Under the pieces are notes generated by a model. The model was not told the DNA's origin. It did not search any database and was given only the letters and a program-made list of their open reading frames with translations. Below are positions 5,239 to 32,709 of a stretch of 64,000 nucleotides of DNA, piece by piece. The stretch is taken from assembly GCA_029838195.1 (NCBI GenBank), contig JALGVJ010000007.1, positions 1-64,000 of the forward strand. The letters run 5' to 3'. Source of the stretch: Promethearchaeota archaeon. Lineage in GTDB: Archaea; Asgardarchaeota; Lokiarchaeia; Sigyniarchaeales; SOKP01. Each line of letters starts with the position of its first letter. The stretch's first letter is position 1. Made by a program: the position numbers and the translations under genes.

Positions 5239-8200
5239 TCATTCCTTAACAACATAATCTCCATCAATCGCAAGACTTAAACTGCTTTCCTCTTCTAACT
5301 CATCGCCCTTAAGGGTGATGATATTCATTAATTTTAGATAATTTATATTTAACAATTTTGCTAATTTTTTAATTTTAATCTTATCAGTTTTCTTAAACAC
5401 TTCAAAAATTTTTTTCAAAACATTTTCTGTATTTTTAATTTCTATTTTTTTCTTTAAAAATTGAACCTCTCGCTTAATATTAATGATATCAATCCCATAA
5501 GATGAGTTTAATTTATTTGAATTTAATTTTATCCAATCTTCGATGATGTAATTGATAATTGAAGATGGAGAATCTCCAAAAACTCTTAGTAAATTCTTTA
5601 TGATTATAGCATTAAATAAATTTAAATTGATAGTACCCATAACAATTTCTGAATTTTTTTCTTCTTTAGAACTAGACATAATTTCAAACTCCTTAAAACT
5701 AATTTTTTTGATTCCATCTTGAGAATCAATATTATGCATTATAGATCGTAGTTGCTTCACAATTTTAGGAATATTTATTCTATAAGATGATATTAGTATG
5801 TTTGAATTTGTTTTTATCCAATCCGTGATGATATAATTTATAACGGAAGATTGAGAATTCCCAAATGTCCCTTGTAACCGCTCTAAAATGATGTTGTTAA
5901 TTAATTTTAAATTAATAGCCATTTTAACTGATTTTATATTTTTTTCTTTTTTATAAACAGACAGCATTTTAAAAATATCAAAAGGAAAATTATATGGGTT
6001 CGTAATAAACATCATTAATTCAGCCCTTTCCATAAAGCAGGTCAAATTCTTACCTGTCACGCGAGTGGAGGTGAAAACGAATGGAAACCTTAAAATATTA
6101 TTTAATTCAATTTTTTCTTTTTTATTATTTAGATTCCCAAACAATGATTTTATGTTATTTATTGAACCTTTAAACAAAGAACAAATATCTGATGATATTT
6201 CAAAATCATGATTATCATCAATATAAATCTTGATTGATTTATTCTTCTCATCAAATATTATATCATCTTTAAACCACATTTCATTTTTCTTTATATAAAA
6301 TTTCCCTTTATTAATATTAAATCCAATACGAGAAATGAGATAATTCTTATCCATATCACAGAAATAATTACCATGGATTATCTCACCGGTCTTTTTATCG
6401 TAAAAGCCTTCTTGAACCTTAGGATACTCAATACCAGTTTTATCCTTAATAATCTTAACACGATCACCTCTTAAACCCATTTTCATTATTCCAATATTAC
6501 CTTTATCATCATAAACAAAACCATATTTCTCATTTGCCAATTCTCCAACCGTACAATCTTTAAGCGGTTTAATAATCGTACCATCATCATTAAATAAATA
6601 AAAATCTTTAATATCTTTCTTTTTTAATATATTAATGATATTTTCAACAGTGAAATCTTTATTTAGTGATTTAACATGAACATTCAAATATCTTTTATAT
6701 CTGAACTCAAATCGATTCAGTACAGGATTAAATACTAAATATTTATCAATGTTATTTAGAAATTCATTAAACGATTTTTGAAAAAATAATTTAATTGATT
6801 TATTAAAAGTATGAGGATCTAAACCTGCAAAACCTTCTTTTTCCGAAAACATATTAATGATTTTTTCTTGAACTTTCTTTATAATAGTAAAATTTGTAAT
6901 CAAATCCTTGATACGTTTTATTACTTTTTCTTTATTTATTTTATTTTGTTTTTGAAAAATTGTTATATCACTATTAATAATTTGGGCAAGAATTTCATAA
7001 TATGCTTCCATACTATTCCCCGTGATAAGGGAATAAGCTTTAATTAACCATGAACGATTTATACTGAATAATTGTCGAATGGCTTCTACTATCTGATTTG
7101 GCGTAAATGGACCAACTAAAGGAATCAAGGAATTAACATCAATTTCTAAAGGATATTTTTTGCTTTTGTTATTCTCATAAACATCCCAAGCAACATATTC
7201 ATGAGCATAAGCCATCATTAATAGAATTTGAGATACCGCATCTTTTAATCTGCTAATTTTTATAGGTTTTAAAGAATTTTTATCTTCATTGGAAATAAAA
7301 TATAATATAATTCTATTCAACTTTTCATCTTTTCTCATTCCGAATGACATAAACCCATCAAAAAAATTTCGGATTGATTTAATTAATTTTGATGCTTTAA
7401 AATTTAATCCAAGATAATTTTTAAAGAAATATTTAAGATAAGTGTCTGATCTTATGAGTTTTCTAAAATCTTCTTTTTTATTGCTATGAACAAGATATTG
7501 AATAGCATGGGTAAATTTAATCGTATTAAATTCTAGTTTACAAAATGTAATGGCACATAATCGTGTTAAAATATATGTTATCGCAAATTTTTCTAATTCT
7601 GACCCCATTAAAGAGATAAACGTATTGGTATAAGATGGAAATAAGGAATTAGATGAATCTTCAAACGCATTAGCAAAATAATCCATAAAATTCTTAATAA
7701 TATCTGCATTGTTGAATTTTTTATTAAATTCCTCGAAAAACATTCTTTTAATTTCGTTATCGTGATTACTTAAAATATGTTTTAATTTTTCAATTAATTC
7801 TTCTCGAATTTTTACGGGAGTTTGATGAGTATCAATATCCAAAATATCTAAAACTTGCCTTACAATAAATTCATAAAAAAATTTTTCGAAAATAGATTTA
7901 AATGATTTACTATACTTAAACATCATTTTTTTAAGAGGTTGAGAGTAATGCATTGAATAAAGAGATTTTTTATTATAAGAACTTGTCATAATTTCTTTGA
8001 AAAATTCTATATCATAAATACTTGCACCATTATAATAAAGAAAATTAATTATTTCATCGTTATTAACGAGATGAGAAAACCACTCATTTAAATTCTTATC
8101 AACCTTATTAAAATCCAAGTTCATTGCACTTCTATATAAGGAACGAAGTTTATACCCCCCAGGATTTATATATTTATTATTCAATAAATTCACTATTTTC

Positions 8201-11200
8201 TCCATAAATTTATCTGCAATTTTAGCATTCTCATCAGCAGCAAAAAGAAACTCTACATTTCCGACTCCTCGAAAGACTCGAGCAATCTTAAAAAAATAGA
8301 TGAGATTAGGATATTTGTTTTCTAAATATTTTTGAATATCTATCTGAATATTATCTTTATCTTCTTCTCTGCAAACAAATATTCGCACTACATACCTATC
8401 ATAATCGATACCCACTTTATCTAAAATATCTTTTATTGAATCTTTTTCTTGAATAATCTTATTTTCGATTTTAAGTCCAGGTTGAAGGAAAATTTCCTCC
8501 ATAATTAATTTATTTTCTTGTCTCGATCGATATTGGACAAATAAACCAAAATTTTTTAAGTTCCTCCCTTGAGTTATTTCATATTTATGAATTATTTGTC
8601 CAAATGTTATACTATCTTTTTCTTTCTCGGAAAGAATAAGGTTATCAATACCAATTATGCGTCCATCTTTATCATTTTTAATAAGTAAAATACTATATTT
8701 CTTTTTTTTATCATCTATAGTATCATTTTCAATTATTTTTTCTTTTTTTATTTTTATTTCAATATTATCATTAAATCCTATTTTTACTTCCTTTATTAGC
8801 TCTTTATTTCTATTAAACTTTCTTTCATAATATTCCATTGCTTTGTAATGAAAGAACGCATTACGTAATCGAGGTATGAATTCCTCTTCTTTCCATCGAT
8901 TTAAATATATGCGATTTCTAAGCGGTGAATGCGAAGTCAATCCATTTTTTAGTTCACTAAATAATCTGAAAATCATTTCATGAGAACCCTCAATCTTTCC
9001 AAGTTCCATCTCAAGGAGCACAAGAACTTTATGTTCTTCTAAAGTAAGAGCCTTTTTGGTTTGTTTAGATCTCAAATTCGTGATTAATTCATTATAATCA
9101 TTTATTTTTAAAAACAATTGAATCATTTCCTTTAACTCATCTTGCTCCTTATTGTCAAAAACTGAATCGTCCTCTTGTAGCCAATTTTCAAATAAATTTA
9201 TCCATTCTTCTTTTTCTTTCCTTATATTTTTGGAAAGTAGTTTTTTCTTGAGCCACTCCTTAAACTTTTTTGTTTCTTTACCTTTCCTCACGGGAATGCC
9301 ATTCGTCTCTTTTTTATATTGTTCATAATATTTCTTGATGGGCTCTTGTTGTTTAAATCTAAGAATTCGCAATTCTCTTTCTTCTGGAGTGAGAAAATTC
9401 ATTTTTTCAAGTAGCATTAACTGATCACTCAGAAAAGCAGGGAAATCTTGTTCATGAGAATTAATCCTTGTTTCATCTTTTTCAATAAAAGAATAATAGA
9501 ATTTTTGAAAACGCCAAAAATAATTAAAGAGGTTTCTCTCTATCATAGAAAGTTCCTTAATTTTTTCCTCCAATTCGAAAAATATCTCTCTCTCTTTCTT
9601 TAGAATGTACGAAGTCCGCAAATAATGGAGTAATTGTTTATATAATCCAAATTCAGTCTCCATTTCCTCATATTTTTTTAAGTATAAAATTAACTTATTT
9701 TTCATATTCCTTTTCAAATTTTTCGAGCGTGTAATCCAATCTGTTAAAATAGTTATCCATTCCTTGTTCTTTTTTTTATTTTCTTGTTTTTCAAATCTCC
9801 TGAAGATGACACCTTCCATTCGCTTATAAAATGAGAATCGTCTATAAAAATATGGTATAAAAGTGTTATACATCCAATGTTTTCGAAAATAAGAATTTTG
9901 CATGAAAGGGTTGCGAACTAATTCATTTTTAAAAGCCTTGAAAGATTCAAATATCAGTTCTTCATGCAATTTGGTCTTTTCAAACTCTATTTCGAGAAAC
10001 ATCAAAAATTCTTTCTCTTTCTCGGTAAACGATTTTTTCTCCTTTAATTTTCTAAAAATAAGACGATAAACTTTTATTTTTTCATATTTCTTAAGTAAGC
10101 GGTCGATTTCCCTTAAGTCTTCTTTCATAAAAATGTCATAATCCCGAAGGCTTTCTCTAAATGCATTAATCCATTTTTCTTCGGTCTTTTCATGCTTTAC
10201 AAAGAGCTCTTTTATAATCTTTTCCTTAAACTCTTTTATTTCTTTTAATTTTCCTTTAGGATCATCCTTTAGTAACTTTTTAACTTCTTTTAACCGATGT
10301 ACTAAGAAAGTAGGGAATCGTTTTTCATGAGCTTGAAGCTTTTTTTCATCATCTTTCTCCTTCCAATAAAAATAATGATCTCGAAATTTAGAAAAACTAT
10401 TATAAATAACTCTTTCTTCCACAGGAAGAGACTCGAAAAACTCTGAAAGTTTGGTTAACATATCTCTTCCTTCTTCTGATATTTTGGATCTGCGAAAATA
10501 TTCAAGCAATTTTACATAAAATTCATGTACACTATGAATTTTTTCATATTTTTCAAGAAGCGATTTAATTTCTTGTTTATCCTCTTCAGAGAGCTCGTCC
10601 GCGTTTTCTATCCATTTTAACAAAAGAGCCACCCAATCTTCATGCTTTCTTTCCTTTTTTTGTTCTTTTAACTCTTTTATTTCTTTTTTAGTTTTTTTAC
10701 CTTGCTCCTTGTCTTTTTCATCGAGTTTTTTATTTTCTTGGTCGTTGTCTTTATGGTTTTCTTGTACGTAATCAGAAATTTTTCCAAAACGGGGTTTTTT
10801 ACGCTTCGAGAATTTCGTTTTTTTATGAATTTCATTTGTCTCTATCTTGCGCTCTTGCTTGACTTCTGTAACTCTTTTCTCGCTGATAGGATCGGCTTTT
10901 ATTTCCTTATTAATTTCCTTTGCTCTTTCTCGTGATGAACCTAATTTTTCGCTAATGACTTTATTTTTTACTTCTTCTTCTTTATTCGTTTCGATTTGAG
11001 TTTTCTCTTGAGTGCTTTCTTCTTTCACGTTTTCTTTTAGTAATTGTTCCTCCATGATTTCTGTTTTTACTTCTTGCGTGCTCTCTTGAGTACCCTCTTC
11101 TTTCACGTTTTCTTTTGGTAATTGTTCCTCCATGATTTCTGTTTTTACTTCTTGCGTGCTCTCTTGAATACCCTCTTCTTTCATATCCTCTTTTTCTTTA

Positions 11201-12552
11201 GATATGGCAATAGTAATAGTACCCCCTTTCTGAGCCATTTCCGAATATTCCTTCATTTCTTTCTCAGTGGGCATCTCGTCCTCTCTTTTAATTTTCTCGG
11301 TTTGAACAATCTCATTATTTTTTTCTGCTTTAAAAGAGGGTTTTATATCATAAATCAAGACATCTTTTTGATCATATAGGCCTTTTTCTGCCTCTTGCTC
11401 ATCTCGTAATTTTTTAATTTCTTCCATGGAAGGCGCGGGCTTTCCATCAAATTTCATTTCCTTAGCATCAAGTACCAGTATATCTTTTACTCTGAAATTC
11501 TCTTTAAATAATTCTTTATAAGCTTGTTCAAACTCAAATTTCTTGTACCACTTATCGTACCATTCTTTAAACTTTTCATCCTTTTGTTCTTTTTCTATTT
11601 CCCAAACTAAATAATTAACTTCCTTTTCAAACTCTTTTACCTCCGCATCATGATTCGCATCTTGATTTGCTTCTGCTCCTATTTCAGTTTTTATTTCATT
11701 CATTCCTTGAGATTCATAATTGATTCTGTCATTATTTTGGCTTTCTTTTAAGTTTGTTTCTAATTCGTCTAATTCTCTAGATTCTGGTATCTTTTCTTCG
11801 TCTTCAATGAAATTTTCTTCTAATTCTTCTTCTACTCTCTCATTTTCCACATCAATATCGTGCTCTTTTAAAGACACTTCATGTTCGGCGAATTCTTCAT
11901 CAATTTCTAAATCGTCAAATTCCCTAAATTCTGGTATCTTTTCATCATCTTCAATGAAATTTTCTTCTAATTCTTCTTCTACTCTCTCATTTTCCACATC
12001 AAGTTCATGTTCCTTTAAAGTCTCTTCATCTTCAATGAAATTTTCTTCTAATTCTTCTTCTACTCTCTCATTTTCCACATCAAGTACATGTTCTTTCAAA
12101 GTCTCTTCATCTTCAATGAAATTTTCTTCTAATTCTTCTTCTACTCTCTCATTTTCCACATCAAGTACATGTTCTTTCAAAGTCTCTTCATCTTTGGCGA
12201 ATTCTTCATCAATTTCTGTTATATCTAATTCTTGTTCATCCAATTGGTCTAGTTCTCTCTCGGATTCGTCTATATCAAAGCATTCCTCCTCTAATTCTTC
12301 ATTTATTTTCTCAACTTCTTCCAAATTAATATTCTCTTCTTCTAATTCCTCGCATTCTTCATTTATATCCTCAAAATCAAGAGTTTCTTCTTTGAGATTT
12401 TCGCTCTCCTCTTCAACTTCCTCTATAAATGAATCATCATCTTTTAATTCCTCATTAATTTCTTCTGCTTCATTTAGATCAATATCAATGTCTTCACTAT
12501 CGCTAACTATCTCTTCTTGTTCTTTTCCTTCATCCTCACTAAATTCTTTCAT
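5239..12552 (-). CDS. Giant 2437-aa protein: acidic repeat N-terminus, four helical repeats, AT-rich C-terminal region, two RHH-like units plus wHTH at the end
   Basis: Uninterrupted ORF with GAGGT SD; internal repeats visible at protein and DNA level. Confidence 0.85.
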   Translation of the reverse strand: MKEFSEDEGKEQEEIVSDSEDIDIDLNEAEEINEELKDDDSFIEEVEEESENLKEETLDFEDINEECEELEEENINLEEVEKINEELEEECFDIDESERELDQLDEQELDITEIDEEFAKDEETLKEHVLDVENERVEEELEENFIEDEETLKEHVLDVENERVEEELEENFIEDEETLKEHELDVENERVEEELEENFIEDDEKIPEFREFDDLEIDEEFAEHEVSLKEHDIDVENERVEEELEENFIEDEEKIPESRELDELETNLKESQNNDRINYESQGMNEIKTEIGAEANQDANHDAEVKEFEKEVNYLVWEIEKEQKDEKFKEWYDKWYKKFEFEQAYKELFKENFRVKDILVLDAKEMKFDGKPAPSMEEIKKLRDEQEAEKGLYDQKDVLIYDIKPSFKAEKNNEIVQTEKIKREDEMPTEKEMKEYSEMAQKGGTITIAISKEKEDMKEEGIQESTQEVKTEIMEEQLPKENVKEEGTQESTQEVKTEIMEEQLLKENVKEESTQEKTQIETNKEEEVKNKVISEKLGSSRERAKEINKEIKADPISEKRVTEVKQERKIETNEIHKKTKFSKRKKPRFGKISDYVQENHKDNDQENKKLDEKDKEQGKKTKKEIKELKEQKKERKHEDWVALLLKWIENADELSEEDKQEIKSLLEKYEKIHSVHEFYVKLLEYFRRSKISEEGRDMLTKLSEFFESLPVEERVIYNSFSKFRDHYFYWKEKDDEKKLQAHEKRFPTFLVHRLKEVKKLLKDDPKGKLKEIKEFKEKIIKELFVKHEKTEEKWINAFRESLRDYDIFMKEDLREIDRLLKKYEKIKVYRLIFRKLKEKKSFTEKEKEFLMFLEIEFEKTKLHEELIFESFKAFKNELVRNPFMQNSYFRKHWMYNTFIPYFYRRFSFYKRMEGVIFRRFEKQENKKKNKEWITILTDWITRSKNLKRNMKNKLILYLKKYEEMETEFGLYKQLLHYLRTSYILKKEREIFFELEEKIKELSMIERNLFNYFWRFQKFYYSFIEKDETRINSHEQDFPAFLSDQLMLLEKMNFLTPEERELRILRFKQQEPIKKYYEQYKKETNGIPVRKGKETKKFKEWLKKKLLSKNIRKEKEEWINLFENWLQEDDSVFDNKEQDELKEMIQLFLKINDYNELITNLRSKQTKKALTLEEHKVLVLLEMELGKIEGSHEMIFRLFSELKNGLTSHSPLRNRIYLNRWKEEEFIPRLRNAFFHYKAMEYYERKFNRNKELIKEVKIGFNDNIEIKIKKEKIIENDTIDDKKKKYSILLIKNDKDGRIIGIDNLILSEKEKDSITFGQIIHKYEITQGRNLKNFGLFVQYRSRQENKLIMEEIFLQPGLKIENKIIQEKDSIKDILDKVGIDYDRYVVRIFVCREEDKDNIQIDIQKYLENKYPNLIYFFKIARVFRGVGNVEFLFAADENAKIADKFMEKIVNLLNNKYINPGGYKLRSLYRSAMNLDFNKVDKNLNEWFSHLVNNDEIINFLYYNGASIYDIEFFKEIMTSSYNKKSLYSMHYSQPLKKMMFKYSKSFKSIFEKFFYEFIVRQVLDILDIDTHQTPVKIREELIEKLKHILSNHDNEIKRMFFEEFNKKFNNADIIKNFMDYFANAFEDSSNSLFPSYTNTFISLMGSELEKFAITYILTRLCAITFCKLEFNTIKFTHAIQYLVHSNKKEDFRKLIRSDTYLKYFFKNYLGLNFKASKLIKSIRNFFDGFMSFGMRKDEKLNRIILYFISNEDKNSLKPIKISRLKDAVSQILLMMAYAHEYVAWDVYENNKSKKYPLEIDVNSLIPLVGPFTPNQIVEAIRQLFSINRSWLIKAYSLITGNSMEAYYEILAQIINSDITIFQKQNKINKEKVIKRIKDLITNFTIIKKVQEKIINMFSEKEGFAGLDPHTFNKSIKLFFQKSFNEFLNNIDKYLVFNPVLNRFEFRYKRYLNVHVKSLNKDFTVENIINILKKKDIKDFYLFNDDGTIIKPLKDCTVGELANEKYGFVYDDKGNIGIMKMGLRGDRVKIIKDKTGIEYPKVQEGFYDKKTGEIIHGNYFCDMDKNYLISRIGFNINKGKFYIKKNEMWFKDDIIFDEKNKSIKIYIDDNHDFEISSDICSLFKGSINNIKSLFGNLNNKKEKIELNNILRFPFVFTSTRVTGKNLTCFMERAELMMFITNPYNFPFDIFKMLSVYKKEKNIKSVKMAINLKLINNIILERLQGTFGNSQSSVINYIITDWIKTNSNILISSYRINIPKIVKQLRSIMHNIDSQDGIKKISFKEFEIMSSSKEEKNSEIVMGTINLNLFNAIIIKNLLRVFGDSPSSIINYIIEDWIKLNSNKLNSSYGIDIINIKREVQFLKKKIEIKNTENVLKKIFEVFKKTDKIKIKKLAKLLNINYLKLMNIITLKGDELEEESSLSLAIDGDYVVKE
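11010..11182 (-). repeat. In-frame 78-bp tandem repeat (EEGxQESTQEVKTEIMEEQLxKENVK), about 2.3 copies
   Basis: Near-identical DNA copies inside the giant ORF. Confidence 0.85.
11775..12192 (-). repeat. In-frame 81-bp repeat (DEETLKEHVLDVENERVEEELEENFIE), 3 tandem copies plus 1 offset copy
   Basis: tcttcaatgaaattttcttctaattcttc starts at 11801, 11948, 12029 and 12110. Confidence 0.9.
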
Positions 12553-12606
12553 GATATTTGATACCTCAAGCTTTTCATAGAGGAAGCTTATTGAAAAATA
12601 AATTTG

Positions 12607-14562
12607 TTATAAATCTATTTCTTTAGTACGGATTTCATATCGTTCTCCCGTTCTCCCATTAATCACGTATGCGTGTCGATCTTTTAAAAATGATAAATAA
12701 TCACGATCTTCTAAATTAGAAGTGAATCGTAGAATGCACTCATCATCCAATCGAAACAATACTTTCAAGCTAGGAAGCTTTGTCACGCATTCAAAAAGTG
12801 TAGATGGAAGCTGGTCTGCAAGAATGAATCCTAATCCTTTAGCTCGAAATTCTTGCATTAATTGAGTAAAGATCTTTTCTAATTCATCTCGGGCAATATC
12901 AATATCATCATTATACATGCGATACATGGATTTTTTCGTGATTTGATGTGCTTCATCAATGAAGATCAGGTTTTTAAGAGAAGGTGATTCCATGTCAGGC
13001 ATTAAAGTCCTAATAGTTTGAAAGATCGCATTAGATAATAGCAATTTCGTATACGCACTACACATTGAAAGATCCACAAAAACAGATTTCCCCTCAAACC
13101 AATCTTTTAACCACGTTGGCGGTTCATAATTAGGAAGTAAGTCCATTGTTTGAAGCAGAGTTGGCGTTTTAACCACCACTAATACTCGATTTTTAAGAGC
13201 ACGCAAGATGGAAAGCTGAAATTCCTCGTGATATGGATTTTTTTTGAACCATAATAATATTCCAGAAAATAAAAGATCCAAGGAAGGAAGCTTTCCCCGC
13301 TCTTTCAAGTAAGAATTCATGACTAAGTAAGTGATTTTATTTACGGGAGTGCGTAAACCCAAGCTTGCCGCAAGATATGTTGCCGTTTCTTGTAATTCCT
13401 TATCAAAATAATCACCTTTAACAAAATATGGAATTTTAAGTTCGGGATCTCCATACTTTAACACCTTATCTGCCGGATAAAATTGCTCCTGATTACCTTT
13501 TCCCAAATTTAAATATAATCGGCCCACGTGTAATGCTTTCTCGTGAAATTCTTTTGAAATTTGATAAATTAACCGAGTTTTTCCCACTCCGGGAATGCCT
13601 CCAATGAACATGGATTGAGAAAATTGATTTACTTCAATTAATGCGGGATGATCCGTTAAAACACCAGTTTTTACAATGTCCCCCAAATAAATGTAATTCC
13701 TATCTTCTTTTGAAATGGGTAAGTAATGAATGTTTTCTATTCGAGGGATGCTTGCATAGGGTAAAGGTAAGCGGGAAGAAATGTAAAAATCAATGATCCC
13801 TTGCGATGCGAAACCCGGCTTTTTGCTTTCAGGAATTCTATCTGCAATTTTACCAAAGAATCTCCCCGTTTCTATTTGTTCTGGGTTTTCCCAAAATACA
13901 TCTTTTAATAATATTTTTGCCCACGTATTTTTAGAGGTGGGAATTAAACGTGCAGGTTCTCCTCTTTCATTTATAATATCCGTGATTAAATATCGCAACA
14001 TGCCTTCGATTTCAGCGGGTTCTCCAGATATTCTTGAAGTTTTTAGAGGATCTTTTTGAATGGCCACGTATATCTTGATTTTAAAATCATGACGTTGAAA
14101 TTCAAAATTAATTGGCAGAATACCTTTTGGTACAACAGCATCAGATTGCTGCCATAACACGTAAGCTAAAATGATATAATGCGTTTTAAAATAAAATAAA
14201 TCAATGAACTTATTAAATAAGGGGAGCTTACCCGCATAAATAGGGAGTGGAAGAGAGATTTCTTGAAAAGGTATTATTCGTTTTAAATAGTTTGAAGTGA
14301 GGGGCAAGGTAGATATCTTGCCGTAAAGTCCAGGAAATTTTCCCTTTAAAAAGTATAAAAATGCTTTTGCTTTCGCTACAGCTTCTGCTTCCGTTTCTCC
14401 ATTAAATAAAAAACTCCAAGAGAAAGTATCTTTAATTAATAATTCCATGGTATAAACGGTATTATCACAGAAAGGATTACAAAGCCAAGAAACCTTATTT
14501 TCTTCAGCCTGATGATTTCCGGGAATTTGAGTGATGCTTACTCTAGCTTGGAACAAGTTTAT
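12607..14562 (-). CDS. HerA/FtsK-superfamily (DUF87/VirD4-like) ATPase with intact motifs
   Basis: Walker A GIPGVGKT, VFVDLS, Walker B LIFIDEAH, EFRAKGLGFILADQLPS; AGGAGG SD at about 14571-14576 favours a start at 14562 (ATA) or 14556 (TTG) over 14643. Confidence 0.85.
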   Translation of the reverse strand: MNLFQARVSITQIPGNHQAEENKVSWLCNPFCDNTVYTMELLIKDTFSWSFLFNGETEAEAVAKAKAFLYFLKGKFPGLYGKISTLPLTSNYLKRIIPFQEISLPLPIYAGKLPLFNKFIDLFYFKTHYIILAYVLWQQSDAVVPKGILPINFEFQRHDFKIKIYVAIQKDPLKTSRISGEPAEIEGMLRYLITDIINERGEPARLIPTSKNTWAKILLKDVFWENPEQIETGRFFGKIADRIPESKKPGFASQGIIDFYISSRLPLPYASIPRIENIHYLPISKEDRNYIYLGDIVKTGVLTDHPALIEVNQFSQSMFIGGIPGVGKTRLIYQISKEFHEKALHVGRLYLNLGKGNQEQFYPADKVLKYGDPELKIPYFVKGDYFDKELQETATYLAASLGLRTPVNKITYLVMNSYLKERGKLPSLDLLFSGILLWFKKNPYHEEFQLSILRALKNRVLVVVKTPTLLQTMDLLPNYEPPTWLKDWFEGKSVFVDLSMCSAYTKLLLSNAIFQTIRTLMPDMESPSLKNLIFIDEAHQITKKSMYRMYNDDIDIARDELEKIFTQLMQEFRAKGLGFILADQLPSTLFECVTKLPSLKVLFRLDDECILRFTSNLEDRDYLSFLKDRHAYVINGRTGERYEIRTKEIDL

Positions 14563-14665
14563 TCTAATTACCTCCTTAATTTTCTTAAAATATCTACATG
14601 ATGAATTAATCTTGATGAGAATATTTAAATAAAAAAAACACAATTTTACGATTCTCCTTCAATCA

Positions 14666-21787: not shown

Positions 21788-21835
21788 GTTAAAATACTAC
21801 TTTTCATGAAAGTATTTAAATAAAAAGATAGGGTT

Positions 21836-22753: not shown

Positions 22754-23047
22754 ATGAAGAACCTTAATAAAAGAAAAAAATTCAAAAATTCAAAATTGAA
22801 AAATTTGAAATTTATCAGTTTGAATTATGCGAGCCCTTTGATTCAAGTCTCTCGGCAATTCAAGAATCCTACCTTCCGATATCACCTCATTATCTGGGGA
22901 TATGCCTTAGTTTCCTTAATTCTCATTCTCATTGGAACGTACATGTACCAATTTTATTTCAGAGGATTTATTATTTTTATCGGGGTCATTTTAACCATGC
23001 TTTCTTTGCTTCTTCTTAATTTAAATAAACCTTATAACACCACATAA
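22754..23047 (+). CDS. Small 2-TM membrane protein
   Basis: Two hydrophobic segments in the C-terminal half; start uncertain. Confidence 0.5.
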   Translation: MKNLNKRKKFKNSKLKNLKFISLNYASPLIQVSRQFKNPTFRYHLIIWGYALVSLILILIGTYMYQFYFRGFIIFIGVILTMLSLLLLNLNKPYNTT

Positions 23048-23378: not shown

Positions 23379-26300
23379 ATGGTATCGAAAAAGAAAAATA
23401 AAAATATAACTCCTGAAGATGTGATGAAATTTCTATTAGAAGCAAATAAGCCCGGTTCAGAATATCACCTATGGGACGTGAATCCCTCATATAGAGATTT
23501 TAATATGGGTATTACCATATTACGATTTGTCGTGGCAATAGCATTAATGTATTCTTTTTTATCTTTTCTTGGTAATTTAGATATTCCTTTTTACCTATTC
23601 ATCACGTGCTCATTGGGTATGACATTGCTTTTTTTATATGCGTTTAGTGCGGAATGGTTTTCGCTTAGAACCTTGTTCAGGCGACTGTTAAATAAAGAGA
23701 TTATATATAGGCCTTTCGAGGATTTGGTATTTTGGAAAGTAAAATCTCATGATGAGATGATTTTTTTTTCTAATAAACGAGAGCTCACGCACGTGGGAAT
23801 GGGCGTGTTCAGAACGGAGATCTTGCCTGAAAACGTGTCAGCATCATTTATATCTGTATTATCGACACTAGCAGGTAAAGCGATACGCATTCCTTTTACC
23901 TATCAAGTCATACAAGTGCCCAGACATTCTGTATTACGAGATCAAACCTTCCAATTGTTAAAAGAGGATGAGAAAAGTGCGAAAAAAACCACGCTCACGA
24001 GAGTTTTAATCAGCATTCCCGTAGGCTTAACCGGAGTTGTTTTCACCTCTTCACTTTTAGAAGATTTAACTAATGAATTAAATCGACGTCTTAATATTTT
24101 TAAAACTCTTGTATTTCAGTATTTTCATCATTATAAATTGACATTACTTGAAGGAGATGAATTGGTGTTTTCGTTGAGAATGTTTTTCTTGCCCGTTAAT
24201 CTTGAAGAGTCTCATGAAAAACAAAAAAATGAAATGAGAAATTTAACAAGATTTTTCACTAAATTCATTGAGCCCATCTTACGAAGCATGTTCTTTGTGC
24301 TCTTTTTCTTTCTTTGGTATTTAGGATTAGCGTTTTATGGCATTGAAGATTGGATCATTGATATCTCCATTGTTATTTTTTTTATTGCTATTTTATTTAC
24401 ATGGTGGAGAAGACCATTATTCTTGCTTACTTATCCCTTCCTAAGAAATCATCCAGAGATAGCGGTAATTAATCCATTTCATCGCATAAAATTTTATCAA
24501 TATCATAGATATCCCGACATGCTTTTCATTCAATTCGGTTCTAAAAAAATGGTCATGCGAATGATGAATTTGCGGAATTTATTATATCCTCATTACGTGA
24601 ACATGTCCAAATTTTTAAGAGCCATCATGGGACATGGAATACGTTTCAGCTACACTCTCATTAATTCACCCTTGAGCGTTAAAGATATCTCCAAAGAACT
24701 CAAGAAAAGTTCATTTTTAGCAAAAAATCCCTTATTATTTCAAAAACACATGAAGGAATATGAGAAAGAAAATTATCTGAGTCGTCATGGTGGATTTTAT
24801 CGCTCCATGCTATTGTTATCGGTTCAAATTCATATTGAAAAGCAGTATATATCGAAGGAAGATTTGGAATTCATTAATGAAGAAATGGAAAAACAAGCAA
24901 ATATTCTTTCTACAAGTTTTCTGACTTCTTCTTATTCACAGAATTTACGGGTTGAATTCTTGCGGTCCCAAAAATTAGTCATGGGAACAGCCGTTCAAAT
25001 GTTAAAAACCAAGATGATACGCACCTTCGGAACGTCCTTGATTTATCAAGTCATGCAGGGTACTGAACTGCAAGCGTTTTTTGACATGCCCGATGAATTG
25101 AAAAAAGCCGTTGCCACGAAAATAGGCTCGGAGTTTTTAACTCCTTTAGATTTAGAAAATTTCATTACAATCGGACATGCCATTGATTTGGAGCATCATG
25201 GCAAGCAAGTGCCCGCAGGTTTTACGGAAGAACAGTTGGATGCTTTGCTCATTAGTCATGGTACGGAAGAACAACGGCAAGCACTTCTCATGAACATTGT
25301 AAAAGAATTAGTGATTCGAGATCGTCCTTGCATTATTTTTGATTTTCATGGGGATTGGTCCAAGCTCATTCGTTATTTTGATCAATATCAAGTTCAAGAT
25401 GGGAATGGAGAATATAAGAATCCATTTAGAGATAAGTTTTCTTATTACGCTATTGGCATAAATTTCATTTTAAATTTATTTCATTCAGGAATAAAGAATG
25501 ATCCCAACAATGTTCATTATTTAGAGTATTTTTACAAGTCCTTTTGTCTTACATTTAAAAAATCTCCTGCTAATGCAACTTATCTTCGTAAAATCGTGGA
25601 AGAATCCCTTGATCGAGAGATATCTGCCAATGGTATTGCAATGGGAAATGATACTAGTTATTTGCAACCCAACTTTTTTTCGAGGAATGATAATTCTTCA
25701 GGGTCCATATTGGATCTATTGGACGAAATCAAAAATACCAGATGGCTACGATTTTCGGAATCAGAAGGGCAAGTATCCGAGGACTTAGATTTCCCTCTGA
25801 AAGAAGCTGTTGAATCGAAAAAAACCATCATCATTGATTTATCCCGTTTATACTTTTTGCGTTATCGAGTGTTTGCAATGTTCATGCTCTTTTCTAGATT
25901 CCTTCACTATTATCATTATCATAGACCATCGATTAAAAAATACTTCGTGCTCCCTAATGCGGATTATTTTTTTAATAAGAAATTCATAGAAAATATTTTT
26001 CATGATGATTACACCACCATTGATATGTTTATAAATCCGATAAAAAAGGCACGAATGGGTATTCTCTGTTCGGTTGCGGATATTTCTCGCGTTCACTCTC
26101 AATTCATTAATTATTTCTCTAATTTCGCTACTTTCCGGCTGCAAAATAATGAAAACTATTCTCTTGTGACCCATCTAATGAACATTGACACCACTCATCA
26201 GCGGGGCCTATTGAGCAAGACAAGACATGATTCGCTTCAGTTGTCATATTTGCGTGTGCTTCCCGAAGATCAAGTCATTATCAAGCGGAATGATAATGAT

Positions 26301-27299
26301 TATCCCTTTCCAGTAGAAATGGAGTGGAAAATAATTAAAGAAGTAAACCCTTTATCAGTGAACGAGCTTTCTAAATGGTTTGATATCCCTTCAAAAATGC
26401 AGCAAATTCGTGGTTCTCTAAAATCTACTCTATTTGAAAAAGATTTAGGAAAGTTTAAGGATTTTATTCCCGAAATTATTCAGTTTTTTGAAGCTATCAA
26501 ATCCATGGAACAAGTGGGCAATCTTTATGAAGCTACCTTGAAAGCATATCTTTTAGAGGTAATGAAAGAAAAAGCAATGAATCTTCCTAATATGACCAAT
26601 CGCCGCTTACAGCAACTTCGTGATGAATTATTCAAGATTTTAAAGGAGCATCAATATTTAGAGGAGCATTTTCCGCCTACCGCCGCAGGTTCTCAAACCA
26701 TTCGTCCCTCGTTTAAGATTGGAGAGCAGTATTATAAAGCTCTTGACGATTATCAATCGTATAAAATGGAATCTAAAACGTCTACAGAATTACATACTAA
26801 TACAAGCATGTCTAATGAACTTACTTTAGAAAAGGAAAAAGATACTCCGGAAAAGGAAAAAATCGAACAAAACTTTAGAGATTTTGAACGCAAGCTTGCA
26901 GAAAGTAGTGGAATGCTCTTATATCATTTATATAAAATGAGTAAATATTATAAGGAAGGAGAATACCAAAAGATTATTTCCATGGGACATGAGAGTTATC
27001 GTGATTTCATGAGTCGAGCAAGAAGCTTTTATCTTCAATATTTGGGCAATATTATAGGCATGAACTTGGAGGCATTCTTGAATACTTTTGCAAAATCTAT
27101 TGGTACATCTAGGAAAAAATTGGATGCGTTAAATGAATTACTATTACGGGAAAATGGACAATTCCGACAAGAATCTTTAGAAACTCGGGCGAAAAAAGTG
27201 TTTGATGCTTTAAATAAGATATATCATCAAATTAAAGACTTACCTCATATTTCATCACGTCATTCGGAACATCCAACAGAAAATAGAATTCAAAATTAA
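23379..27299 (+). CDS. Membrane VirB4/HerA-like protein with a duplicated N-terminal module and a degenerate ATPase domain
   Basis: Two (2TM + alpha/beta) modules; HerA-like ITIG, IIFDFHGDW, TIIIDLS, FATFRL; Walker A replaced by SHGTEEQR and Walker B by VLPNAD. Confidence 0.75.
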   Translation: MVSKKKNKNITPEDVMKFLLEANKPGSEYHLWDVNPSYRDFNMGITILRFVVAIALMYSFLSFLGNLDIPFYLFITCSLGMTLLFLYAFSAEWFSLRTLFRRLLNKEIIYRPFEDLVFWKVKSHDEMIFFSNKRELTHVGMGVFRTEILPENVSASFISVLSTLAGKAIRIPFTYQVIQVPRHSVLRDQTFQLLKEDEKSAKKTTLTRVLISIPVGLTGVVFTSSLLEDLTNELNRRLNIFKTLVFQYFHHYKLTLLEGDELVFSLRMFFLPVNLEESHEKQKNEMRNLTRFFTKFIEPILRSMFFVLFFFLWYLGLAFYGIEDWIIDISIVIFFIAILFTWWRRPLFLLTYPFLRNHPEIAVINPFHRIKFYQYHRYPDMLFIQFGSKKMVMRMMNLRNLLYPHYVNMSKFLRAIMGHGIRFSYTLINSPLSVKDISKELKKSSFLAKNPLLFQKHMKEYEKENYLSRHGGFYRSMLLLSVQIHIEKQYISKEDLEFINEEMEKQANILSTSFLTSSYSQNLRVEFLRSQKLVMGTAVQMLKTKMIRTFGTSLIYQVMQGTELQAFFDMPDELKKAVATKIGSEFLTPLDLENFITIGHAIDLEHHGKQVPAGFTEEQLDALLISHGTEEQRQALLMNIVKELVIRDRPCIIFDFHGDWSKLIRYFDQYQVQDGNGEYKNPFRDKFSYYAIGINFILNLFHSGIKNDPNNVHYLEYFYKSFCLTFKKSPANATYLRKIVEESLDREISANGIAMGNDTSYLQPNFFSRNDNSSGSILDLLDEIKNTRWLRFSESEGQVSEDLDFPLKEAVESKKTIIIDLSRLYFLRYRVFAMFMLFSRFLHYYHYHRPSIKKYFVLPNADYFFNKKFIENIFHDDYTTIDMFINPIKKARMGILCSVADISRVHSQFINYFSNFATFRLQNNENYSLVTHLMNIDTTHQRGLLSKTRHDSLQLSYLRVLPEDQVIIKRNDNDYPFPVEMEWKIIKEVNPLSVNELSKWFDIPSKMQQIRGSLKSTLFEKDLGKFKDFIPEIIQFFEAIKSMEQVGNLYEATLKAYLLEVMKEKAMNLPNMTNRRLQQLRDELFKILKEHQYLEEHFPPTAAGSQTIRPSFKIGEQYYKALDDYQSYKMESKTSTELHTNTSMSNELTLEKEKDTPEKEKIEQNFRDFERKLAESSGMLLYHLYKMSKYYKEGEYQKIISMGHESYRDFMSRARSFYLQYLGNIIGMNLEAFLNTFAKSIGTSRKKLDALNELLLRENGQFRQESLETRAKKVFDALNKIYHQIKDLPHISSRHSEHPTENRIQN

Positions 27300-27485: not shown

Positions 27486-27544
27486 ATTTTGAGTAATTTG
27501 TCTCAATTTTCTAACCGAATAAAATAATCATTATTATTAAACAA
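27486..27544 (+). repeat. 59-bp direct repeat, left copy
   Basis: attttgagtaatttgtctcaattttctaaccgaataaaataatcattattattaaacaa; 55/59 identical to 31618-31676. Confidence 0.9.
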
Positions 27545-27720: not shown

Positions 27721-29721
27721 TTATGGTCTTATATAATTCTCATCAGCTGGGAAAAGGGGTAAATATCCTTTTTCTTTAAATTCCTCAACTTTTTTCTTAA
27801 TTTCTTCAAATGCAATTAATCTATTATTAGCTATATCTATTCCCCAAAATTCTAATTCAAAATTTCTTTGATTGTGTTTTTTAAGAATGTGATTTTGTTT
27901 TTTAAGAATGTCATGATTTTTTAATTTTCCTTCAATTTCATGTAAATGATTTATTAACGTGATATTCTCTAGTACAATATTTAATCTCCTTATTGGTTGC
28001 CCTTCATATTTTTTAATAGTTTCATCAATTTTTTTTATAGGTAATATTCCTTGCCCAAATAAAGTTTCAATTTCAAATACTTCATTAGGAAATTTTTCAG
28101 CATTATTTTTAATGTAGATATCCGGAACGATTTCAGCCTCATTACCTAATTCATGTTCAACTTGCACGAATTTTCGCATTTCAGGTAAATCTTCCTTGTT
28201 CTTTAAACCTAAAGATTCTAAGAGGAATTTTACCGTAAAGAGTTTTAAATTATAGTGAACCTCCGATTCTTCATTGTTTCTTGATCTACTCGTAATCTCT
28301 ATAAAAGGTTCTACTTGAATTGATTGAAAATAATCTTCATATTTATTTAATGTAAAATTAAAGATGTCGTCAAAATTTATGTTGTCATTTAAATCAAAAT
28401 GATTTTTCAATTCAGTTTCCGATATATCTATAAAACCCCATAAAAGTGGACAAATTCTTATTTTTGCTTCAAAATCGTCCAGTAAGGCATTATTTGAGGA
28501 AAGGGAGATAATTTCTATTTTGTGTTCTCTTGGGAGATACTCGTCTGATATTAAGTCAAGATTCTTAAATATAATATATTCCAAATCCCGTGTATATGAT
28601 TCTTCCAACCAATTTCTAATCTGTTCCTTGTTTTCTTTTTTCAATTCCCGGCTATGTTGATAATCTATGGTTAATATTTTATTTTCTTCGTCAATTCGAT
28701 AGTTTATTAATTCGTTAATAAAAGTTTTAAAATTAGTATGTTTAATAGCAATTGGAAATCCCCCTTTAATTTCTCGATAGAATCTTTTTAATAATTCTTC
28801 CAATGTCCCTGTAAAAGCATCATTGTGATCTTTTAAATAAATTAATACGGGTTTATCTCTTAAGTTTTTAACAGGAATTCCTAAAATGGGTTCTTTTTTA
28901 AGCTCCTTTATTTCTTCATTATAAGTTCCACTTGAGTCTTCATTTCCTAAAGGTTTTCCTTCTAATGCGAGCTCATCTTTTGTGTCTTTAGTAGAACTTT
29001 CTAAAACGGTTTCTTTTTCATCCTCTCTAATTTTTCCATTACCAGTTCCACTTGAGTCTTCATTTCCTAAAGTTTTTCCTTCAAATTCTTTTTTTGGGAG
29101 ATGAGGAGGAGTATTATTGGGTCTTGTTTGAATCAATGGTAAATTCATAGTTAAATTTCTTATTTCATAATCGGTTGATTTTAAAGATTTAACTTCAATC
29201 AGGATTATTTCATTTTCTTCAAGAGGTCGAGTTTCTTTAATTTCAATTATTTTAGTGTTTAACTTGATTTTTTTCGTGTTAACATAAAGCGGTTTTGCTT
29301 CAATCGGGATTATTTCATTTTCTTCAAGAGGTCGAATTTTTTTAATTTCAATTATTTTAGTGTTTAACTTGATTTTTTTCGCGTTAACATAAAGTGGTTT
29401 TGTTTCAATAATCGGAATGGGAGATGTATAATTAATTTGAAATTGCTCATTGCCATTAGCTTTTAAATCTTTTTCTTCTCCCCACTGTTTTTTTGTTTTA
29501 GAATTCTTTATTTTTGCTTCATTAATTGGAAGGGGAGATGAATAATTAATTTGAAATTGCTCAACGCTATTAGCTTTTAAATCTTTTTCTTCAATCCGCT
29601 GTTTTTTTATTTTAGAATTCTTTACCTTTTCTTTTTTTTTTTCCTTCTTATTTACTTTTTTCGATTTTCTCTTTATTTTAGGTTTCTTTTTTATTTTATA
29701 ATTTAATTTTTTCAAGAACAT
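27721..29721 (-). CDS. Protein with a repeat-expanded N-terminus and a C-terminal PD-(D/E)XK-like nuclease
   Basis: ESEVHYNLK...VEHE...VPDIY...FEIETLFG motif set; abuts the upstream gene. Confidence 0.7.
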   Translation of the reverse strand: MFLKKLNYKIKKKPKIKRKSKKVNKKEKKKEKVKNSKIKKQRIEEKDLKANSVEQFQINYSSPLPINEAKIKNSKTKKQWGEEKDLKANGNEQFQINYTSPIPIIETKPLYVNAKKIKLNTKIIEIKKIRPLEENEIIPIEAKPLYVNTKKIKLNTKIIEIKETRPLEENEIILIEVKSLKSTDYEIRNLTMNLPLIQTRPNNTPPHLPKKEFEGKTLGNEDSSGTGNGKIREDEKETVLESSTKDTKDELALEGKPLGNEDSSGTYNEEIKELKKEPILGIPVKNLRDKPVLIYLKDHNDAFTGTLEELLKRFYREIKGGFPIAIKHTNFKTFINELINYRIDEENKILTIDYQHSRELKKENKEQIRNWLEESYTRDLEYIIFKNLDLISDEYLPREHKIEIISLSSNNALLDDFEAKIRICPLLWGFIDISETELKNHFDLNDNINFDDIFNFTLNKYEDYFQSIQVEPFIEITSRSRNNEESEVHYNLKLFTVKFLLESLGLKNKEDLPEMRKFVQVEHELGNEAEIVPDIYIKNNAEKFPNEVFEIETLFGQGILPIKKIDETIKKYEGQPIRRLNIVLENITLINHLHEIEGKLKNHDILKKQNHILKKHNQRNFELEFWGIDIANNRLIAFEEIKKKVEEFKEKGYLPLFPADENYIRP
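28920..29630 (-). repeat. Three different in-frame duplications in series (periods 114, 105 and 120 bp)
   Basis: attaatttgaaattgctc at 29431/29545; aagaggtcga at 29221/29326; gttccacttgagtc at 28925/29045. Confidence 0.85.
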
Positions 29722-30984
29722 TCACTCTCGCACGCTAAATTTATAAAAAATACCATTATTTCGTTCATTGCTAGTTAATGAATAGTCCTCACGAATTTCA
29801 CTAACTCTAAATAAATCTAAAATATCTAAAAATAAGTAAGGTGCAATTATATTTATAAAATCTCGAATATCTATGTTAACTCTATATTCTCTGAATCTAT
29901 CTTTAGTATTTTTTGAGTAATGATTATTGATATATGTTATGGTAGTCCCTAGTAGTACAAAATAATATGGTTTGACATCTTTTACCTTTCCTATAAAAAA
30001 TTTTTTTTTTTTAGGGTTATAGTCGTAGTCATAGTCAATTATTAAACTTAAAGGAAAAGAAAGATTTCTTTTTCTAAAGTTTTCAGAATGTCGATTTACC
30101 TCTGATTCTATAAGGTCTAAATAATCTTCTTTAAGATCTATTGGATCTTCTATTAAAATGAAGTCATCAATTGAGTAAAAAGAGCTATGAAATTTTTTTT
30201 CAATCAAATCTAATAAGGAATAAATTGCGTTACCTAAGCCATGTTCTTTGTATCCCCATAATGTAAACTTTTTTTCTTCCATATCATCTTGGAGCGGAAA
30301 AGTTAATTTTGGTTCTAATTCTAAAATATTTTCAGCTAGTTGTTCGAAATTTGATTGTAACTTTGGATAGGCTTGGAGTAAATAAAAATAAGGAGCTAAA
30401 TGAAAATTCCTAATAAAGAAAGTTTGTTGATTATACGAAGGATGAAATTTCAGAATATTAGTGTAAAGATCTTTTAGCAATTCTACAATTTTTTCAGGAT
30501 TCTTAATTATTTCATTTATTTCTTGGGAACTAATTAGGGGAGAATCAATTTTTAAAGACCTAATAATAGGTTTTATTCTTTTTATAATTTCCTTAATGAA
30601 ATCCATAAACTCGTTTTCTTCAAACACGCATCTTACATTTTCTTTTTCAAAAGGATCTTCACCTATACTTTTAAAATAAATATATTCTTTTCTCGTAAAA
30701 TCAATACCAAAAATCAAATTAACTAATTTAGCTAAACTATAACCCTCAAATTCTCCTTTTTCATTAACTCCTCCTAAAAGAAATCTTTGTAAATTTTCCT
30801 CATTATTATCAAAGCATTCTTTCAAATTTTCAGTGAACTTTTCCTTTAAAATTTTTTCTAATTCCCTGAAATATAAGGCTATTTTTAAAATTGGGACTAT
30901 GTAATTTTTTACATAAGTTTTCCATACTTCCTTATTTAAATAATCAAAATTGATTATATCATCATATGTCAATCTACATGTCAT
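29722..30984 (-). CDS. Hypothetical protein, partner of the nuclease gene
   Basis: 420-aa ORF whose stop directly abuts the next ATG. Confidence 0.8.
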   Translation of the reverse strand: MTCRLTYDDIINFDYLNKEVWKTYVKNYIVPILKIALYFRELEKILKEKFTENLKECFDNNEENLQRFLLGGVNEKGEFEGYSLAKLVNLIFGIDFTRKEYIYFKSIGEDPFEKENVRCVFEENEFMDFIKEIIKRIKPIIRSLKIDSPLISSQEINEIIKNPEKIVELLKDLYTNILKFHPSYNQQTFFIRNFHLAPYFYLLQAYPKLQSNFEQLAENILELEPKLTFPLQDDMEEKKFTLWGYKEHGLGNAIYSLLDLIEKKFHSSFYSIDDFILIEDPIDLKEDYLDLIESEVNRHSENFRKRNLSFPLSLIIDYDYDYNPKKKKFFIGKVKDVKPYYFVLLGTTITYINNHYSKNTKDRFREYRVNIDIRDFINIIAPYLFLDILDLFRVSEIREDYSLTSNERNNGIFYKFSVRE

Positions 30985-31617: not shown

Positions 31618-31676
31618 ATTTTGAGTAATTTGTCTTAATTTTCTAAGCGAATAAAATAATGATTATTATTACACAA
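31618..31676 (+). repeat. 59-bp direct repeat, right copy
   Basis: attttgagtaatttgtcttaattttctaagcgaataaaataatgattattattacacaa. Confidence 0.9.
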
Positions 31677-32058: not shown

Positions 32059-32709
32059 ATGGTAGAGATTTTACAGCGGAATGAAAATTTTTATACCACA
32101 AAGGAATCAGTTCTCGTAGAATTAATGAAAGAAGGGCATGATTTTTTGGAGTTATTTGACATTGATGCGGTATTGAAGCGGGAAACTATTTCCTTATTGT
32201 ATCAATTTTTCAAGAGATGTGAGAATTTTCCCCACAATGCGTTTAAATTTTTTATTGCTGGGTATTATATTATTGAGAGGCATCCGAAGGCGTTTCCGGT
32301 ACACGATTCAAAGGAAGAGTTTTGTCGTAGGTTTGGGATAAAGGTGAGTGCTTTGGACTATAGTGTAAGGCGGATTGAGGACGTCTTGCATTTGACGAGG
32401 ATATTAGATGATAAGAATTATCCATATTATTTTGATCCGAGGCGGGATATTTGTTTTTTATTGGTGAAGCAGATTGCGGTGCGGAAAGTGGATGCTGCGA
32501 TGATGGATTTTTTAGTGAAAAGCGAGTTAGTTAATTCTCATGCGTTGGCGGAGGAGTTAGTAAATGAGGTTATATTTGAGAGGAAGTTATATCCAGAGGA
32601 GCTTTTTCGTCAATTTTTTGAAATTTTCCAAGATATTATCGTGCATCTTTTGGGGCGTTATGAGGAATATAATGAATATATCAAGCTTCAGGAGAGATAT
32701 TTTATTTAA
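32059..32709 (+). CDS. Cyclin/TFIIB-fold-like helical protein
   Basis: KFFIAGYYII...KEEFCRRFGIKVSALDYSVRRI resembles one TFIIB repeat with its HTH. Confidence 0.55.
   Translation: MVEILQRNENFYTTKESVLVELMKEGHDFLELFDIDAVLKRETISLLYQFFKRCENFPHNAFKFFIAGYYIIERHPKAFPVHDSKEEFCRRFGIKVSALDYSVRRIEDVLHLTRILDDKNYPYYFDPRRDICFLLVKQIAVRKVDAAMMDFLVKSELVNSHALAEELVNEVIFERKLYPEELFRQFFEIFQDIIVHLLGRYEEYNEYIKLQERYFI

What the first reader, a model, noticed from the sequence alone, without database searches (positions are those of the whole stretch)
5239..32709. Candidate undescribed Ced/T4SS-like transfer or secretion system with its own TFB
Seen: one cluster holds an intact HerA-type ATPase, a membrane VirB4-like pseudo-ATPase, three similar 2-TM hairpin proteins, two more small membrane proteins, a HEXXH membrane peptidase, a membrane-anchored HhH protein, a surface glycoprotein, a divergent TFB, a second cyclin-fold protein and a giant repeat protein. 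No relaxase or integrase is visible. Known: the Sulfolobales Ced DNA-import system uses a HerA/VirB4-like ATPase (CedB) and a VirB2-like pilin (CedA1) and is activated through the TFB paralogue TFB3. Inference: this is a chromosomal Asgard analogue for cell-cell DNA exchange or for export of the giant protein.
Basis: partly seen in the sequence, partly recalled or inferred. Interest (0 to 1): 0.9.

Follow-up and report, generated by a model that had tools for sequence, protein, structure and literature searches.

The report
Satellite cassette of Asgard recombination island
This 26-kb block in a Loki-type Asgard archaeon is not a self-standing DNA-import machine but an inserted, integrase-free cassette that copies membrane and regulatory genes of the host's putative DNA-exchange island and adds a motor ATPase plus a giant protein whose relatives end in DNA-cutting domains, so it probably spreads by cutting and repair when cells swap DNA.

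Summary
The genes are real and intact. The 1,306-aa membrane protein folds like VirB4 but has lost its ATPase motifs; the HerA-type ATPase is intact and is not the NurA repair enzyme. The cluster is not a complete Ced/T4SS: it lacks a CedA/VirB6-like channel and the genes that flank the dead VirB4 in 27 of 29 relatives. Most of it is a compacted, purifying-selected second copy of a larger island (contig C89) holding RadA, Hef, Hel308 and FEN1 paralogues, with the same rare T-rich promoter and divergent TFB. The block splits a gene pair adjacent in 24 of 24 relatives, so it is an insertion. Its own core, HerA plus the giant protein, recurs in 33 of 111 related genomes, at up to 10-11 sites, often bracketed by diverged duplicates of host gene ends; the giants share a carrier region but end in LAGLIDADG, HNH or other nuclease-like domains. 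Best reading: a homing-type satellite exploiting a TFB-controlled DNA-exchange programme (0.5); toxin export is the main rival. DNA transfer, cutting and expression are untested. The scan already noted the island and the ATPase-nuclease module in other genomes; no paper found describes either.

The parts
5239..12552 (-). Giant 2,437-aa protein: hyper-acidic repeats (about 1-560), four helical carrier repeats (616-1243, the last with the family motif), a region shared with C-terminal parts of 9,000-14,000-aa Asgard proteins that holds a PD-(D/E)xK-like motif (E1654, D1732, E1756, K1758; motif level only), then RHH domains
5239..5700 (-). In-frame tail of the giant = the host RHH-winged-helix gene that lies beside the cyclin-fold gene in relatives; left boundary and probable target site. 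A partial second RHH copy lies at 5725-5982
12607..14556 (-). Intact soluble HerA/VirB4-superfamily ATPase (649 aa from a TTG start) of the cassette clade, 54 nt upstream of the giant
14622..14635 (-). Island-type promoter (T-rich element plus TATA) upstream of the ATPase
14666..15358 (-). HEXXH membrane peptidase, M50B-like; precedes HerA in related cassettes
15847..16059 (+). 70-aa two-TM hairpin, family 1
16253..16609 (-). Small membrane protein, 86% identical to the C89 copy; island promoter at 16667
17306..18664 (+). Divergent full-length TFB (Zn ribbon, two cyclin repeats, altered HTH, C-terminal extension); 80% identical to the C89 copy
18679..19743 (-). Surface glycoprotein with N-terminal signal and C-terminal anchor
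19763..21787 (-). HhH-domain membrane protein; its C-terminal half is homologous to the island's operon-leading membrane protein; island promoter at 21826
21981..22283 (-). Two-TM hairpin, family 2
22376..22699 (-). Three-TM hairpin, family 2
22754..23047 (+). 97-aa two-TM orphan; no homologue found in the loci fetched
23379..27299 (+). VirB4-fold pseudo-ATPase: duplicated TM-TM+ferredoxin-like module, dead HerA-like domain, C-terminal winged helix; island promoter at 23278
27486..27544 (.). 59-nt direct repeat, left copy (93% identical to 31618-31676)
27721..30984 (-). Two-gene cargo (666 and 420 aa) of unknown function, also beside the C89/C79 copy; the 666-aa gene was found in only 1 of 130 other genomes
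31618..31676 (.). 59-nt direct repeat, right copy
32059..32709 (+). Host cyclin-fold gene: right flank, not part of the cassette

Best explanation
The block from about 5,700 to 31,700 is an inserted, integrase-free satellite cassette of a Lokiarchaeal recombination/DNA-exchange island. Shown: it is an insertion; most of its genes are second copies of island genes under the island's promoter; its core (HEXXH peptidase, HerA ATPase, giant) recurs at many unrelated sites in relatives, several bracketed by diverged duplicates of host gene ends, with variable nuclease-type tips on the giant. Inferred: the divergent TFB switches on T-rich promoters during a cell-contact or damage programme; the dead VirB4 and small membrane proteins act as scaffold of an exchange apparatus whose other parts come from the main island; the live ATPase couples the giant or its DNA to that apparatus; the giant's nuclease cuts the empty target allele, and the island's RadA/Hef/Hel308/FEN1 repair copies the cassette in, using the carried piece of the target gene as homology arm (homing). 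In this copy the target was the RHH-winged-helix gene, now fused to the giant.
For: Insertion: RHH-wH and cyclin-fold genes are neighbours in 24/24 relatives but 26 kb apart here. Duplicate of island parts: 77-94% nucleotide identity to pieces up to 50 kb apart on C89/C79, dN/dS 0.2-0.5, dS 0.09-1.3. Shared promoter: 29 of 63 genome-wide sites fall in the island copies, 1.5 expected, including one before the ATPase. Parent island carries RadA, Hef, Hel308, FEN1 and GTPase paralogues. Mobility: giants in 33/111 genomes at E<1e-10, on 10-11 contigs in G177 and G295 with different flanks; most HerA-linked VirB4-like proteins form one clade (support 100) mixing three genera while island copies follow genus. 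Gene-end duplicates of 66-470 nt at 76-89% identity bracket six cassettes. Tips: LAGLIDADG in 10/40, DUF4379 in 4, phage HNH/endonuclease families in up to 5; the same flank goes with the same tip across genomes. No consistent immunity-like gene follows. LAGLIDADG and GIY-YIG do not occur in the held text of the polymorphic-toxin survey PMC3482391.
Against: The window's own giant has no family-level nuclease hit; its nuclease rests on four residues in a six-sequence alignment, and that region comes from giant secreted, toxin-like proteins. No duplicated gene-end scar was found at the window's right boundary. Several large cassettes show no bracket within the DNA fetched. The window's VirB4-like gene is sister to the genome's own C89 copy, not to the mobile clade, so local duplication contributed. 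About half of the giants with upstream DNA have no HerA before them. The promoter motif was derived from these same upstream regions. No DNA transfer, cleavage or expression data exist.
Confidence: 0.5

Rival explanations
1. Polymorphic-effector export: the live ATPase and dead VirB4 form a T7SS/T4SS-like exporter, and the giant is a contact-delivered nuclease toxin, kept inactive by its acidic region until the HEXXH peptidase or export removes it.
For: Conserved N-terminus with variable nuclease tips is the classic layout. The window's tip is shared with C-terminal parts of 9,000-14,000-aa proteins with glycine-rich helices, followed by LRR genes in two loci. The VirB4-like N-module weakly matches EccC domains (Z 8.7-9.7).
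Against: No consistent immunity gene or orphan-tip array follows the giants. LAGLIDADG and intein-type tips are typical of homing elements. It does not explain gene-end duplicates or tip-site coupling.
Confidence: 0.25
2. One reading: a complete, domesticated Ced/Ted-like DNA importer encoded by this cluster.
For: VirB4 fold, weak CedD hit (E 5.5e-4), conserved hairpins, dedicated TFB; split homologues lie next to Hel308/RadA genes in other Asgard families.
Against: No 6-7-TM channel; the operon partners present in 27/29 relatives are missing here; no CedD match over cut-off in the genome; the block is an insertion. The idea fits the C89 island better than this window.
Confidence: 0.12
3. Neutral segmental duplication, or a co-binned relative's island, with the ATPase-giant pair adjacent by chance.
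For: The bin has 7.9% contamination and the pieces have mixed ages.
Against: Only island genes are duplicated between C49 and C89, and C49 has typical tetranucleotide usage with single-copy flanks. All frames are intact under purifying selection. TFB, hairpins, HEXXH, HerA and giant recur together in G021, G257, G320 and G013.
Confidence: 0.08

Closest known systems
Ced (Sulfolobales) and Ted (Thermoproteales) DNA-import systems (PMC9905601, PMC11823120)
   Same: VirB4/HerA-type ATPase folds, small two-TM proteins, no relaxase, link to homologous recombination.
   Different: The VirB4 homologue is catalytically dead; no CedA/TedA/VirB6-like channel was found; pilin fold not shown; the block is an inserted duplicate carrying a giant nuclease-like protein.
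TFB3 regulon of Sulfolobus (PMC6101591)
   Same: A TFB paralogue associated with DNA-exchange genes.
   Different: TFB3 is short, lacks the HTH and needs TFB1. This TFB is full length with an altered HTH, sits in the cluster and goes with a T-rich element in the BRE position.
Mobile endonuclease ORFs of fungal mitochondria that carry a replacement gene end (PMC3630166), and archaeal intein homing (PMC3024317)
   Same: Integrase-free insertion with a diverged duplicate of the target gene end next to a LAGLIDADG-type nuclease; spread by cutting and recombination.
   Different: Cassettes are 5-26 kb, the nuclease is the tip of a 900-2,400-aa acidic carrier, and they bring a motor ATPase, membrane proteins and a transcription factor.
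Polymorphic toxin systems with FtsK/HerA ATPases, T7SS type (PMC3482391)
   Same: Conserved N-terminus, variable nuclease tip, adjacent HerA/FtsK-superfamily ATPase.
   Different: No immunity gene or orphan-tip array, homing-type tips, and gene-end duplications.
VirB4/TrwK of type IV secretion (PDB 7o42, 8rtd)
   Same: Best structural match over residues 111-1002 (Foldseek E 1.2e-16; Z 25.1, rmsd 12.7, 624 aligned).
   Different: Walker A and B lost, duplicated membrane module, C-terminal winged helix; no other T4SS subunit recognised.

Membership tests
Ced/Ted DNA importer | Active VirB4-like ATPase (CedB/TedB) | tested here: inconclusive
   The VirB4-fold protein is dead. The live ATPase is soluble, of the HerA superfamily and had no Ced model hit; hhalign to the VirB4-like domain 45%.
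Ced/Ted DNA importer | 6-7-TM CedA/TedA/VirB6-like channel | tested here: not met
   No ORF in the cluster has 6-7 TMs apart from the peptidase and the pseudo-ATPase with 4-5; no NCBIfam hit for the island's membrane proteins.
Ced/Ted DNA importer | VirB2/CedA1-like pilin | tested here: inconclusive
   Conserved two-TM hairpins, but no profile hit to solved pilins or Ced models; not folded.
Ced/Ted DNA importer | VirD4-like CedD | tested here: not met
   No match over the cut-off in the genome; best 91 bits against 600. Only a 62-residue weak hit on the pseudo-ATPase.
Ced/Ted DNA importer | Damage-induced DNA import between cells | not testable with these tools
   Needs a culture and marker-exchange assays.
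NurA-HerA repair system | HerA in a nurA/mre11/rad50 operon | tested here: not met
   Repair-type HerA genes lie on C89 (96.8 kb) and C87 beside Mre11/Rad50-like genes and branch apart from the cassette ATPases (support 99).
ICE / conjugative element | Integrase and relaxase | tested here: not met
   None among the cluster's large ORFs in Pfam, NCBIfam or PADLOC scans; a novel fold cannot be excluded.
Homing element with replacement gene end | Homing-class endonuclease domain | tested here: inconclusive
   Met for the family (LAGLIDADG 10/40, HNH families); motif level only for the window's giant.
Homing element with replacement gene end | Diverged duplicate of the target gene end bracketing the element | tested here: inconclusive
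   Met in six relatives. In the window only a partial second RHH copy inside the giant; no far-end scar.
Homing element with replacement gene end | Empty allele in relatives | tested here: met
   RHH-wH and cyclin-fold genes are neighbours in 24/24 relatives.
Homing element with replacement gene end | Site-specific cleavage of the empty allele | not testable with these tools
   Needs an in vitro or plasmid cleavage assay.
Polymorphic toxin system | Conserved N-terminus with variable C-terminal effector | tested here: met
Polymorphic toxin system | Adjacent immunity gene and orphan toxin cassettes | tested here: not met
   Genes after the giants are mostly convergent or housekeeping genes; in the window 490 nt of non-coding DNA and a TGT-like gene follow.
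TFB3-type factor | Truncated TFB lacking the HTH | tested here: not met
   Full length with an HTH region (PMC6101591).

The most novel reading that the evidence does not exclude
Lokiarchaeia have an alternative-TFB-controlled mating-like programme (VirB4-derived exchange apparatus plus private recombination enzymes), and a class of integrase-free drive elements has evolved to be expressed only within that programme, carrying their own motor ATPase, copies of the apparatus and the TFB, and a nuclease-tipped carrier that homes into host gene ends. This window would be such an element captured at the RHH-wH locus.
Probability: 0.3. Interest if true: 0.9.

Novelty: new variant of a known kind. 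Interest (0 to 1): 0.7.

Why it matters
How Asgard archaea exchange DNA is unknown and bears on the origin of eukaryotic sex. Homing elements can spread only where intact and occupied alleles meet in one cell, so nuclease cassettes wired to the island's promoter are indirect evidence that the island drives chromosome-scale exchange. The reading is testable: each nuclease tip predicts a cut site in the neighbouring gene, and a distant island sits in a complete genome (G038; its size matches cultured Promethearchaeum syntrophicum from memory, not verified). The family is also an untapped set of site-specific nucleases. Within this scan the island and the module are repeats; what this window adds is their union under one promoter type in one compact insertion.

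Tried and rejected
AlphaFold of the giant's nuclease-like region gave pLDDT 42 and its fold search best Z 5.0: uninformative. The complex prediction of ATPase with carrier repeat returned no verdict. No RNA holder was listed; three DNA runs gave only short scattered pieces. Atlas searches for the 666-aa gene and the giant region named no family. A database search for longer homologues of the giant tip found only itself. Profile comparison of the live ATPase N-terminus with the pseudo-ATPase modules was negative. Hairpin searches against PDB sequences gave only hydrophobic chance hits. GIY-YIG-like and PD-(D/E)xK-like tips seen by eye got no Pfam support, so they remain motif level. Joining C49 to C93 or C59 through the MITE could not be settled because all copies have similar A-rich flanks. 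A head-type scar upstream of the cyclin gene was sought and not found. One search was a mis-specified alignment and was not used. Literature searches found no description of the island or cassette.

Full report
VERDICT. The listed genes are real, but the block is best read as an inserted satellite cassette of a larger recombination island, not as a complete Ced/T4SS machine. The window is the start of contig C49 of a 4.5-Mb, 94-contig genome; that it is a Loki-type Asgard archaeon is my inference from gene content.

OBSERVATION. All ORFs are intact. The ATPase at 12607-14556 keeps Walker A and B, invariant in 20 homologues. It branches with other cassette ATPases, apart from the repair HerA genes beside Mre11/Rad50 on C89 and C87. 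The 1,306-aa protein has lost both Walker motifs in all 13 aligned homologues. Its model (pLDDT 77) matches TrwK/VirB4 best, over residues 111-1002, and its membrane module is duplicated. Two hairpins are related; the third is a separate family. The cyclin-fold gene at 32059 is a single-copy host gene with a canonical promoter, unlinked to the island elsewhere.

PARENT ISLAND. The pseudo-ATPase occurs in about 73 of 91 family genomes at E<1e-40, and in split form in other Asgard families next to Hel308 or RadA genes. In 27 of 29 loci it follows two small membrane genes, which themselves follow an HhH-membrane gene in the longer loci. The surrounding island carries RadA, Hef, Hel308, FEN1 and small-GTPase paralogues, surface proteins, the HEXXH gene, hairpins and the TFB. 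This genome has the full island on C89 and a partial one on C50. The window holds 77-94% identical copies of pieces that lie up to 50 kb apart on C89/C79, with dN/dS 0.2-0.5 and dS 0.09-1.3. It has none of the recombination enzymes and none of the pseudo-ATPase's operon partners, so it cannot be the whole machine. Co-binning is unlikely because only island genes are duplicated.

REGULATION. A T-rich element joined to a TATA box occurs 63 times in the genome, 29 times in 109 kb of island copies against 1.5 expected. The motif came from these upstream regions, so the enrichment is partly circular. In the window it precedes the ATPase, the 16-kb membrane gene, the HhH gene and the pseudo-ATPase. 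The island TFB is full length and its recognition helix differs from the housekeeping TFBs, unlike truncated TFB3 (PMC6101591). That it reads this promoter is inference. An earlier scan note gave this lead; I tested it here.

CORE MODULE. HEXXH-HerA-giant, with or without TFB, hairpins and pseudo-ATPase, recurs in many relatives. A profile of the giant's carrier repeat finds it in 33 of 111 family genomes at E<1e-10, on 10 contigs in G177 and 11 in G295, with unrelated flanks. Giants share an acidic N-terminus and a conserved motif but differ after it: LAGLIDADG in 10 of 40, DUF4379 zinc fingers in 4, phage HNH/endonuclease families in up to 5, one intein, one cyclin-repeat tip. Giants at the same flank share the same tip, even across genera. 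Six cassettes are bracketed by 76-89% identical duplicates of host gene ends: lipoamide dehydrogenase-like twice, CoaBC-like, an aminotransferase, a hydrolase, and the start of ribosomal protein S8 (gene names read from the sequences). Most HerA-linked pseudo-ATPases form a clade mixing three genera, whereas island copies follow genus; the window's copy is instead sister to C89's.

THIS COPY. In 24 of 24 relatives an RHH-winged-helix gene sits beside the cyclin-fold gene. Here its only full homologue is the last 150 residues of the giant, 26 kb away, so the cluster is an insertion whose giant is fused to the target gene, the same geometry as the S8 case. No far-end scar was found. The giant's middle region is shared with C-terminal parts of 9,000-14,000-aa Asgard proteins and shows a PD-(D/E)xK-like pattern, E1654 and K1758 invariant in six sequences; folding did not confirm it.

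MECHANISM. Shown: insertion, duplication under selection, shared promoter, family mobility, nuclease tips in relatives. Inferred: TFB-driven induction, scaffold role of the dead VirB4, coupling by the live ATPase, cleavage of the empty allele and repair by the island's enzymes. This resembles fungal mitochondrial endonuclease ORFs that bring a replacement gene end (PMC3630166) and archaeal intein homing, which depends on homologous recombination (PMC3024317). The main rival is toxin export; the window's own tip favours it, but missing immunity genes and the gene-end duplicates do not, and LAGLIDADG does not occur in the held text of the toxin survey.

NOVELTY. Searches found no paper on this island or cassette; the library lacks most subscription journals. 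The scan's own notes already report the island in at least seven other windows and ATPase-nuclease modules in several genomes; these are not independent support. It works like a domesticated T4SS derivative plus a homing element, but fails membership of Ced/Ted, ICEs and the NurA-HerA system. Interest 0.7.

Noticed in passing
window 311-4744: Defence-like block left of the giant: OLD-family nuclease (PADLOC Old, E 1e-61), a winged-helix plus PIN-like pair, and a TGT/DpdA-like gene.
   Followed up: partly
G000 C59 4687-4743 and 8593-8687 (L265): Two stand-alone copies (57 and 97 nt, 91-93%) of the 3' end of the RHH-wH tail, each after cargo DNA; they look like scars of repeated insertion at this gene end, and C59 may join C49 through a MITE.
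   Followed up: partly
window 1-106: End of a roughly 340-nt MITE with 20-nt terminal inverted repeats; about 30 ends in the genome, many at contig breaks.
   Followed up: partly
G344 C23, G277 C47, G257 C75 (L219, L220, L223): Open frames of 13,906, 14,557 and 9,240 codons whose C-terminal parts are shared with the window's giant and with 800-1,100-aa stand-alone genes; they look like a polymorphic-toxin family.
   Followed up: partly
G000 C47 28286-30598: Membrane-anchored, intact paralogue of the cassette ATPase with no giant next to it; a candidate motor for the main island.
   Followed up: no
L071, L072, L074, L080: Versions of the cassette ATPase with 6-7 N-terminal TM segments (907-1,032 aa), some beside the hairpin genes.
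   Followed up: no
G000 C34 (L157 1489-2274): A conserved 260-aa host membrane protein ends in the same 35-residue motif as the giants' carrier; weak hits to it occur in many family genomes.
   Followed up: no
G000 C79 3196-16239: Type III-like CRISPR-Cas genes and array lie next to the main island's end.
   Followed up: no
G000 C89 1706-5617 and 29474-32901: In this genome the pseudo-ATPase has left its operon, whose other four genes remain together 24 kb away.
   Followed up: partly
L234-L238: In other Asgard families the pseudo-ATPase is split into a membrane-module gene and a dead-ATPase gene, beside Hel308 and two small membrane genes.
   Followed up: partly
window 21874-21901 and 23263-23290: 28-nt inverted repeat (93%) around the hairpin genes; probably two opposed promoter copies, but it could allow inversion.
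   Followed up: no
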